Source: Octopus vulgaris (lineage: Eukaryota). From it: a DNA stretch of 64,000 nucleotides. The notes beneath the pieces are model-generated. The model did not search any database. It was given only the letters and a program-made list of their open reading frames with translations, and was not told where the DNA came from. The translations under genes were made by a program, and so were the position numbers. The first letter of the stretch is position 1. Each line of letters starts with the position of its first letter. The stretch lies in contig OX597825.1 in the NCBI GenBank assembly GCA_951406725.2, positions 31,682,001 through 31,746,000 of the forward strand, written 5' to 3'. Shown piece by piece: positions 17,630 through 19,760 of the stretch.

Positions 17630-18110
17630 CAAGCTGGCAGAATCATTAGCACATTGGACAAAATGCTTGGTGCCATTTCTTCTGGATTCAAGTTCTGAGT
17701 TCAAATCCTGCTAAGGTCGAGTTTGCCTTTCATCTTTTTGGGGTTGATAAATTAAGTACCAGTTGAGTATTGGGGTCAATGTAATTGACTTACCCCTCCC
17801 TGAAAATTTAAGGCCTTGTGCCTATAGTAGAAAGGATTATCATCATCATCATCATCATCGTCGTCATTGTTGTCATCGTCGTCGTCGTCATCATCATTAT
17901 TAAGGTGGCACACTGGCAGAATCATTAGCACACAGGGTAAAATGCTTAATAGCTTTTCATCTGTCTTTACATTCTGAGTTCAAATTCCACTGAAGTCAAC
18001 TTTGCCTTTCATTCTTTCAGGAGCGATAAAATAGGTGCCAGTTACTCATTGGGGTGGATGTAATCAACTAGACCCCACTCAACAAAATTCCAGGCCTTGT
18101 GCCTAATGTA
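17630..18110 (+). mobile_element. Two tandem SINE family B copies (alternative GGCCTTGTGCC tail)
   Basis: CTGGCAGAATCATTAGCAC..GAGTTCAAAT..TTTGCCTTTCAT..GGCCTTGTGCC twice; another copy at 18884-19085. Confidence 0.8.
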
Positions 18111-18198
18111 AACCCTTTGTGGTCAATAAAGAAATTATAATGGAATGGAAGGTTTATGATACCTGTAGAGTACCTCCTTCTCCCATTATAATTATTTT

Positions 18199-18578
18199 TG
18201 TAGTTTCAAGGACCTGGAACACGAAGTAGAAGTTCGGAAGCAGAGTAAAATTCAATAGCCATTTATTTACAGAGTTCTCATTCATGTGGTTCACTCTCGG
18301 TGACCATTACCTCTGGAGTTAAGCATGTTGAGTCAGAGTGGGACAAGAGTCTGCTATGAGCTGCTGGCTTTGCAGTGTTTCTTGGCATTGAATGTGAGAA
18401 GAGTGAGAGAGTGAATGTTGCCGTTTCTTGCTTAAATACTGGTTGCCAGTGAGAATCTCGTGGTCGTCTCGCGCATGGCAAATGGTTGCAAGTGAGATCT
18501 CGTTCTTGTCTCGTACATGGCAATGGCTACCACCGAGATCTCCTTCATAATGTCTCTGGCTTCTTGTGCCTCACTAGA
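18199..18578 (-). mobile_element. Possible solo LTR
   Basis: Termini TGTAGT..ACTAGA (near-inverted); minus-strand TATTTAA and AATAAA in LTR order; no TSD found. Confidence 0.35.
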
Positions 18579-19351
18579 ATGCTAGCGTGAAAATAGAGAA
18601 TAAGTGGAGCAGGCACAAGAAAAGAGCCAAGATTGCAAACAACAAGATATGGTACAAAATGTGACGAGTCAAAAGAAGATAATTACAAGAAATATAAATG
18701 GGCATGCACAAAATTTTGACAAAATGTTCAATGGCAAAGCATTGGAATTGTTAAGAAAGCAATTATCTATCACAGGAAACACAAAAGATGTCATATATAT
18801 ATCGTTGTGGTACATTTTTGGGGCCAATGCACAGTACGGCCTGTCCTGGTGACATAAGGTTTGTTTGTGTGTGTGTGTGTGAAGGCAGCAAGCTGGCAGG
18901 AACGTTAGCACACTGGGCTAAATGTTTAGTGGAATTTTGTCCATCTTTACATTTTGAGTTCAAATTCTGCCAAGGTTGACTTTGCTTTTCATACTTTGGG
19001 CAAGGACCAGTTGAGTACTAGGTTTGATGTGATTCATTTATCCCCAGCTTCTGAAATTGCTGGCCTTGTGCCAAAATTTAAAACCAATATATACATATAT
19101 ATATATATTTTTTTTTTTTTAAATTAAGGATAAAATCTTTATAAGAAATTATCAGTAGTTAGCGTGAAAAACCTCGTAAGAGAAAAAATCTAAATTTTTC
19201 CACTTTGAAAATATTTATTTATATTATATAGAGGGTACTATTATTCATAGGTACCGCATGCTAGGAGAGACTCTTGCAGTCAAAACTACTAAAATAAACA
19301 AATTGTACCAAATGCAAAACTTCAAAGCAAGTCATTTAAAAACAGAATTTA

Positions 19352-19415
19352 GTTACATATCACCTGTGATTTCGCAATCAATGCAGAATATGCATTCTAT
19401 GCTCTTCAGTGCAAC
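19352..19415 (-). ncRNA. Type I hammerhead motif, canonical core (left arm)
   Basis: Reverse complement of 19526-19589. Confidence 0.75.
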
Positions 19416-19525
19416 GAACTCAAGACATGTAAGGAAAAAACACAACATAGCATACCCGACAGCCAACCGTAGAATTCGTCATAGCATGTACGAATGTTTA
19501 TCTTTACATACGAATGTTTATCTTC

Positions 19526-19589
19526 GTTGCACTGAAGAGCATAGAATGCATATTCTGCATTGATTGCGAAATCACAGGTGATATGTAAC
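19526..19589 (+). ncRNA. Type I hammerhead motif, canonical core (right arm)
   Basis: GTTGCA-CTGAAGA-GCA..TGC-GAAA-TCAC ag GTGA-TA-TGTAAC; all three helices pair; AUA site. Confidence 0.78.
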
Positions 19590-19710
19590 TAAATTCTGTT
19601 TTTAAATGACTTGCTTTGAAGTTTTGCATTCGGTACAATTTGTATATTTTAGTAGTTTTGACTGCAAGAGTCCCTCCTAGCGTGCGGTACCTATGAATAA
19701 TAGTACCCTC

Positions 19711-19757
<47 letters not shown>

Positions 19758-19760
<3 letters not shown>

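What the first reader, a model, noticed from the sequence alone, without database searches (positions are those of the whole stretch)
19221..19720. Recent fold-back with two intact back-to-back hammerheads
Seen: 198-bp arms at ~98% identity; each has an unmutated canonical core, 6-bp stem I and a hairpin stem III. Arms start 3 nt before stem I. The 104-nt spacer includes a duplicated TACGAATGTTTATCTT at the junction. Inference: either strand's transcript carries one sense ribozyme plus its antisense, so the long hairpin could mask cleavage and be an ADAR or Dicer substrate.
Basis: partly seen in the sequence, partly recalled or inferred. Interest (0 to 1): 0.72.

Follow-up and report, generated by a model that had tools for sequence, protein, structure and literature searches.

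The report
Fold-back retrozyme insertion with Penelope footprint
This hairpin is one of hundreds of young insertions of a 495-base non-coding jumping element that carries one hammerhead-ribozyme motif per unit; most copies are folded back in the same way, so the two opposed ribozyme motifs are likely a by-product of copying by a Penelope-type enzyme rather than a regulatory switch.

Summary
In detail: 198-bp arms, 194 of 198 identical, one type I hammerhead motif on each strand, exact 16-nt duplication. But the feature is larger (about 19119-19721) and not unique. It is one insertion of a ~492-497-nt, ORF-less, tandem-unit repeat (291 exact tag matches in the genome; 102 cores identical to this one). 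The 'spacer' is the unit's own upstream sequence plus a short templated duplication. In two samples, 76 of 132 loci are head-to-head fold-backs; 67 of 76 have one outer end at unit ~200-208 and the other at ~305-312, nearly all in (TA)n. That is the Penelope 'inverted copy plus tail' signature, with a ~104-nt tail instead of 30-40. Seven of 67 carry hammerhead cores on both arms. The right-arm motif has lost its distal stem I; read-through transcripts are predicted to mask both motifs. Cleavage, transcription and editing are untested. The mobilising enzyme is inferred; Neptune-type elements are candidates, with no sequence link found. Opposite-strand hammerhead pairs are in print (PMC4209133), and this scan noted the same layout before on other DNA (e1-8673239, e1-8829949). 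Ordinary locus; mildly useful family.

The parts
19119..19721 (.). Whole insertion: two head-to-head arms of the ~495-nt unit; both outer ends blur by a few bases into (TA)n or A-run
19119..19510 (-). Long arm: unit positions 405-492 then 1-~303 (numbering on the 492-nt L027 copy, position 1 = first base of the paired arm)
19119..19220 (-).
19345..19421 (-). Left type I hammerhead motif with distal stem I (19421-19418 with 19348-19345); core 19409-19403; predicted cut between 19358 and 19357
19419..19510 (-). Most of the 'spacer': the unit's own sequence upstream of the hammerhead
19511..19524 (+). Junction: templated re-copy of 19491-19504 (2-nt TA microhomology at its start, 2-nt TT microhomology with the right arm)
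   Evidence: end-joining origin inferred
19523..19721 (+). Short arm: unit positions 1-~200, 5'-truncated
19526..19589 (+). Right type I hammerhead motif, core 19532-19538, predicted cut after 19583; 5' strand of distal stem I lost by truncation
19087..19120 (.). Left target: (TA)n plus a 13-nt A-run (element sense) at the long end
19716..19758 (.). Right target: (TA)n; no target duplication can be read inside the microsatellite

Best explanation
This is one insertion of a young, ORF-less, ~495-nt tandem-unit element with one type I hammerhead motif per unit, and its fold-back was likely made during integration, when a Penelope-type reverse transcriptase/endonuclease supplied in trans would have primed cDNA from both cut strands of a (TA)n target. 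Shown: copy number, unit, tandem arrays, (TA)n targets, two fixed 3' ends ~104 nt apart, variable 5' starts, one end of each kind per fold-back. Inferred: one strand's cDNA starts at unit ~305, the other's at ~200, on an uncleaved multimeric or circular RNA; both run toward the RNA's 5' side and their 3' ends are joined by microhomology, here with a 14-nt templated re-copy. Both arms happened to pass the hammerhead. With one motif per strand this copy cannot excise a monomer, and read-through RNA is predicted to zip both motifs into the duplex, so it is probably a dead-end copy; tandem arrays such as L160, L159, L204, L027 are the likelier sources.
For: Genome search: arm matches at 98-99% on many contigs, 2295 candidates incl. 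a sister family; 291 exact 28-nt tags, 216 exact long-end tags, 102 exact 52-nt cores. Unit 487-497 nt in 7 same-strand arrays. Sample 1: 46 of 75 loci head-to-head, 40 of 46 short+long. Sample 2, other tag: 30 of 57 head-to-head, 27 short+long. 3' ends abut (TA)n. 5' starts of the two arms lie within 15 nt (modulo the unit) in 12 of 40 (3.9 by permutation, p=0.0002) and 7 of 27 (2.5, p=0.007). Some fold-backs share no sequence between arms (L122, L132, L152), so both arms need RNA template. 85 of 114 arms reaching unit 80 continue past the predicted cut. An older sister family (~80% identical) has the same two ends and compensatory stem II changes. Intact RT+GIY-YIG ORFs with a Cys-finger linker are in the genome, end in (TA)n and have two ends 32-35 nt apart. 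A purified Penelope-type protein extends both target strands from two internal RNA sites that delimit the tail, without needing hammerhead cleavage (PMC11167929); inverted 5'-truncated copy plus one-sided tail is the class signature (PMC8557442; PMC3846280).
Against: No autonomous partner with a homologous terminal repeat was found (35 endonuclease-bearing loci; three Neptune-type proteins against the family loci, hits in flanks only, none abutting an arm in register). The tail is ~104 nt against 30-40 nt in the papers and 32-35 nt in the local autonomous families. One fold-back has two long ends (L237) and 8 of 76 are complex or end elsewhere. This copy's own 5' starts are 88 nt apart, so it does not show the paired-start pattern. 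No Rfam hit; ViennaRNA gives the hammerhead fold in only 0-0.4% of samples even for isolated motifs, and 8 of 9 Xenopus dimers did not cleave in vitro, so catalysis is open. The covariation rests on two changes between two families, in rows picked for an intact core.
Confidence: 0.78

Rival explanations
1. Same element, but the second arm is made by snap-back: one cDNA folds on itself and copies itself out to the other end site.
For: Paired 5' starts in 19 of 67 fold-backs; cases such as L155, L156, L186, L123 where the second arm copies the first arm's 5' part up to the next end site; self-priming was proposed for palindromic Penelope junctions (PMC3846280 passages).
Against: Offsets fall on both sides of zero, whereas snap-back needs one sign per order of synthesis; several short arms reach further 5' than the long arm they would copy; L122, L132, L152 share no sequence between arms; at this locus the arms start 88 nt apart.
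Confidence: 0.15
2. The unit is simply the terminal repeat of an autonomous Penelope-like element and this is a 5'-truncated stump of it, not a separate retrozyme family.
For: Layout is that of Penelope stumps; opposite-strand hammerhead pairs 100-700 bp apart were ascribed to truncated elements (PMC4209133); the genome could not be scanned whole, and protein checks used three Neptune-type queries only.
Against: Arms up to ~1.3 kb are pure unit sequence running head-to-tail; no sense ORF over 47 codons in the young family's arrays; the motif has a full stem III and distal stem I, unlike the minimal motifs of animal Penelope repeats and of the local Neptune-type family.
Confidence: 0.15
3. One reading: a selected pair of ribozymes masked by their own antisense, feeding ADAR or Dicer.
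For: Masking and a ~200-bp duplex are predicted for read-through RNA.
Against: Fold-backs are the family's commonest product and double cores occur in 7 of 67; arm identity equals family age; right motif is truncated; the copy sits among microsatellites and repeats, and the 12 window frames scanned against Pfam gave no hit over a cut-off.
Confidence: 0.04
4. A MITE or fold-back DNA transposon with terminal inverted repeats and TA target.
For: Long inverted repeat, no ORF, TA-rich flanks.
Against: Ends are asymmetric (short and long), inner ends vary, 29 of 75 loci have one orientation only, tandem arrays exist.
Confidence: 0.02

Closest known systems
Metazoan non-LTR retrozymes (coral, mussel, axolotl; PMC7229834, parts 2-3 of 6 and passages read; Xenopus, bioRxiv 10.64898/2026.07.22.740005, parts 1 and 3 of 5 and passages read)
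   Same: ORF-less, low-GC unit with one type I hammerhead, in short tandem arrays and dispersed singles; predicted self-paired circle (z=-3.3, 60 shuffles); Penelope-like elements present in the same genome.
   Different: Unit ~495 nt (150-450 bp quoted there); mostly dispersed fold-back insertions in (TA)n; the word 'inverted' does not occur in PMC7229834 and 'tail' not in the 2026 preprint; cleavage and circular RNA untested here; no homologous autonomous repeat found.
Complex insertions of endonuclease-bearing Penelope-like elements (PMC8557442, PMC3846280 passages; PMC11167929 parts 1-2 of 4)
   Same: Partial tandems, adjacent inverted 5'-truncated copy, tail on one side only, microsatellite target, hammerhead upstream of the two ends.
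   Different: No ORF or ORF start in the unit; tail ~104 nt rather than 30-40; full-type rather than minimal hammerhead.
Opposite-strand hammerhead pairs in Schistosoma (PMC4209133, passages)
   Same: Two motifs 100-700 bp apart on opposite strands, ascribed to truncated Penelope-like elements.
   Different: Those are minimal motifs; the ends and tail were not analysed in the passages read.

Membership tests
Type I hammerhead ribozyme | Conserved core CUGANGA, GAAA, UH with three helices, stem I open | tested here: met
   92.8% of cells paired, slid controls 15-44%; two family-level compensatory changes
Type I hammerhead ribozyme | Match to an Rfam hammerhead model | tested here: not met
   no hit at gathering score or E<=10
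Type I hammerhead ribozyme | Distal stem I with internal loop for the loop 1-loop 2 contact | tested here: inconclusive
   present in left arm and sister family, lost in right arm; the contact itself not modelled
Type I hammerhead ribozyme | Self-cleavage | not testable with these tools
   fold sampled at 0-0.4% without tertiary terms
Non-LTR retrozyme | Non-coding unit of a few hundred bases with one type I hammerhead, at least two consecutive units somewhere | tested here: met
   family: 7 arrays at 487-497 nt spacing; this locus alone has no same-strand pair
Non-LTR retrozyme | No protein-coding capacity | tested here: met
   sense frames <=47 codons in the young family; antisense 156-codon frame has no Pfam or database match and is closed in related copies
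Non-LTR retrozyme | Expressed as linear and circular monomer RNA | not testable with these tools
   no raw reads were offered
Non-LTR retrozyme | Homology to the terminal repeat of an autonomous Penelope-like element | tested here: inconclusive
   none among 35 endonuclease-bearing loci; genome not scanned whole
Penelope-type insertion | Inverted 5'-truncated copy with tail on one side only | tested here: met
   67 of 76 fold-backs short+long
Penelope-type insertion | Tail of 30-40 nt | tested here: not met
   ~104 nt
Penelope-type insertion | AT-rich or microsatellite target | tested here: met
Autonomous Penelope-like element | RT plus GIY-YIG ORF | tested here: not met
   no hit in the window or abutting any arm
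MITE / fold-back DNA transposon | Symmetric terminal inverted repeats at both ends of every copy | tested here: not met

The most novel reading that the evidence does not exclude
The family is a genomic record that full-type hammerhead retrozymes are integrated by a Penelope RT/endonuclease dimer that primes both target strands at two fixed internal sites of one multimeric or circular RNA, with a threefold longer tail (~104 nt) than described; the paired 5' starts of the two arms would show both cDNAs running off the same RNA end. It would give mechanistic, not only phylogenetic, evidence for the retrozyme-Penelope partnership and a ready substrate for an in vitro test.
Probability: 0.5. Interest if true: 0.5.

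Novelty: new member of a known kind. Interest (0 to 1): 0.25.

Why it matters
The locus itself is an ordinary, probably inert copy. The family matters modestly: who mobilises animal retrozymes is still argued from co-occurrence and phylogeny (PMC7229834; 2026 preprint), and here hundreds of young copies carry the Penelope two-end footprint with a strict short/long rule, which turns the question into a direct test (map reverse-transcription starts on this RNA with resident Neptune-type proteins). If transcribed, such fold-backs would also be a standing source of long duplex RNA, but that was not shown.

Tried and rejected
Cut-site templates: 5' starts looked enriched just 3' of the predicted cut in sample 1 (unit 57-80: 15 against 7.1 expected, p=0.007, one of 12 bins) but this did not replicate (7 against 5.4, p=0.30; the neighbouring bin 41-56 was high instead, 9 against 2.9); the pooled bin 49-80 (31 against 16.4) is post hoc and fits stalling at the ribozyme as well. 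Expression: no RNA holder listed. Contigs of guessed-RNA runs laid on 18870-19720 and on the L160 array cover family sequence, but where they cover this copy's private positions they mostly carry other letters, none of the listed pieces bridges the junction, and A>G plus T>C places were 4 of 10, 3 of 16, 7 of 24 against 4 of 15 in a probable DNA run; none of this is evidence for or against transcription or editing. Antisense 156-codon open frame in one subfamily (1 in 2000 mononucleotide shuffles): no Pfam or protein match, frameshifted in this copy's subfamily and closed by the same stops in related copies; rejected as coding. Core conservation count (6 of 840) is biased by picking copies on the core and was not used. 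Autonomous partner by homology: not found; a shared AT-rich word at the long end of one Neptune-type family is too short to count. Empty site and target duplication: not readable in (TA)n. Sequence and place look-ups in earlier notes gave nothing for this locus.

Full report
Observation. The arms 19221-19418 (-) and 19523-19720 (+) are 194 of 198 identical, 104 nt apart. A strict scan of both strands of the window found two type I hammerhead motifs and no others, one per arm, pointing outwards. The 16-nt duplication is exact. Rfam found no hammerhead, at gathering score or at E<=10, and the hammerhead fold is 1.2 kcal/mol above the minimum for the 64-nt motif and rare in sampling (0-0.4%); the energy model has no tertiary terms, so catalysis is open.

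The family. The window lies in a 2.8-Gb genome of 227 contigs; that it is an octopus-like animal is my inference from size and repeat content, and earlier notes use the same label. The arm matches at 98-99% on many contigs. Exact tags give 291, 216 and 102 matches, so the young family has some hundreds of copies. Tandem copies define a unit of 487-497 nt with one hammerhead. Numbered on the 492-nt L027 copy, this locus is unit 405-492 plus 1-~303 on the - strand (19510 to ~19119) and unit 1-~200 on the + strand (19523-19721). The spacer is thus mostly the unit's upstream part; 19511-19524 re-copies 19491-19504 with 2-nt microhomologies at both ends, which I read, from general knowledge, as a templated end-joining scar. 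Seventy distinct full arms differ from the majority letter by 1.9% on average; the right arm has 1 and the left 3 private changes, so 98% is the age of the family. An older sister family, ~80% identical, has the same ends and a hammerhead with compensatory changes in stem II (92.8% of cells paired, slid controls 15-44%; only two family-level double changes, rows chosen for an intact core). Both families show a distal stem I beyond an internal loop; the left arm has it, the right arm lost three of four pairs by truncation.

End survey. Sample 1: the first 100 of 291 tag matches fell in 79 loci; I dropped 4 as copies within duplicated blocks (L134-L136, L142), leaving 75, classified by hand from the tables. 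46 are head-to-head; 40 of these have one outer end at unit ~200-208 and the other at ~305-312; 6 are nested or end elsewhere; 29 loci have one orientation (18 short, 11 long). Sample 2: of the first 100 of 216 long-end tags, the 57 loci not in sample 1: 30 head-to-head, 27 short+long, 1 long+long (L237), 2 other; one pair cut by a locus edge was not scored. Ends nearly always run into (TA)n. Both arms carry the core in 7 of 67 simple fold-backs, and in further loci of the first search, so this layout is recurrent. The 5' starts of the two arms lie within 15 nt, modulo the unit, in 12 of 40 (3.9 expected, p=0.0002) and 7 of 27 (2.5 expected, p=0.007); this copy's starts are 88 nt apart. 85 of 114 arms that reach unit 80 go on past the predicted cut at 61/62; an apparent excess of starts just after the cut did not replicate.

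Mechanism. Partial tandems, an adjacent inverted 5'-truncated copy, a one-sided tail and microsatellite targets define Penelope-type insertions (PMC8557442, passages; PMC3846280, passages). A purified Penelope-type protein cuts and extends both target strands, starting at two internal RNA sites that bound the tail, and does not need hammerhead cleavage (PMC11167929, parts 1-2 of 4). I infer the same here: top-strand cDNA from unit ~305, bottom-strand cDNA from ~200, on an uncleaved multimer or a circle (arms up to 2.7 units), joined at their 3' ends. Snap-back of one cDNA explains some junctions but not offsets of both signs or arms that share no sequence. The enzyme must come in trans: the young family's arrays have no sense frame over 47 codons, and the antisense frame was rejected. 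The genome holds intact RT+GIY-YIG ORFs with a Cys-finger linker (Neptune/Nematis type; the clade label is my reading); they end in (TA)n with two ends 32-35 nt apart, but share no sequence with the unit. The partner is therefore unidentified, and the ~104-nt tail is unexplained.

What this copy can do. It has one motif per strand, so it cannot release a monomer. In read-through RNA of either strand the antisense arm is made first and the core was paired to it in 500 of 500 sampled folds. Whether the locus is transcribed, edited or diced is untested.

Comparison and novelty. It works like a Penelope-type insertion and, as a family, meets the sequence criteria of a non-LTR retrozyme (PMC7229834, parts 2-3 of 6 and passages; bioRxiv 10.64898/2026.07.22.740005, parts 1 and 3 of 5 and passages); cleavage and circular RNA are untested, and Rfam membership and canonical tail length are not met. 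Opposite-strand hammerhead pairs 100-700 bp apart are already reported and ascribed to truncated Penelope-like elements (PMC4209133, passages). Five literature searches (listings only for the other papers) showed no description of this family or of a retrozyme with the inverted-plus-tail footprint; I read no supplements, where retrozyme lists may include it, and repeat libraries such as Repbase could not be searched. Earlier notes of this scan report the same layout in other genomes; they are unchecked and not counted as support. Verdict: new member of a known kind; interest 0.25.

Noticed in passing
L039:150-570: An unrelated fold-back element with two opposite-strand type I hammerhead motifs beside a Neptune-type end in (TA)n; the layout recurs in other families of this genome.
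   Followed up: no
L054, L055, L064 (781-aa ORFs); L057-L060: Young RT+GIY-YIG elements with intact ORFs, a degenerate hammerhead-like motif in the L055 family and two 3' ends 32-35 nt apart in (TA)n.
   Followed up: partly
L096-L120: Older sister family, ~80% identical to the unit, ~90% among copies, same short and long ends.
   Followed up: partly
L207, L215, L218, L222, L238: Tail-only insertions: unit ~186-190 to ~312 between (TA)n on both sides; long-end cDNA often stops at the short-end site (bin not significant).
   Followed up: partly
window 19108-19120; L074, L083, L217, L226, L234: A-run of several extra letters at the long end before (TA)n, suggesting slippage at the start of reverse transcription.
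   Followed up: no
unit ~385-395 (absent from this copy; e.g. L160, L119): A short GC-rich word kept in both families that resembles a YY1 site (label recalled); possible internal promoter element just upstream of where this copy's long arm begins.
   Followed up: no
L027:1949-2416 (+): 156-codon stop-free frame antisense to the hammerhead in one subfamily; no homologue, closed in relatives.
   Followed up: yes
L237; L153; L161: Clusters or nested palindromes of several arms within 1-10 kb, suggesting secondary duplication.
   Followed up: no
window 17634-19085: Three copies of a very abundant SINE-like repeat (D8, D13; heavy cover); the insertion sits in the (TA)n after the third.
   Followed up: no
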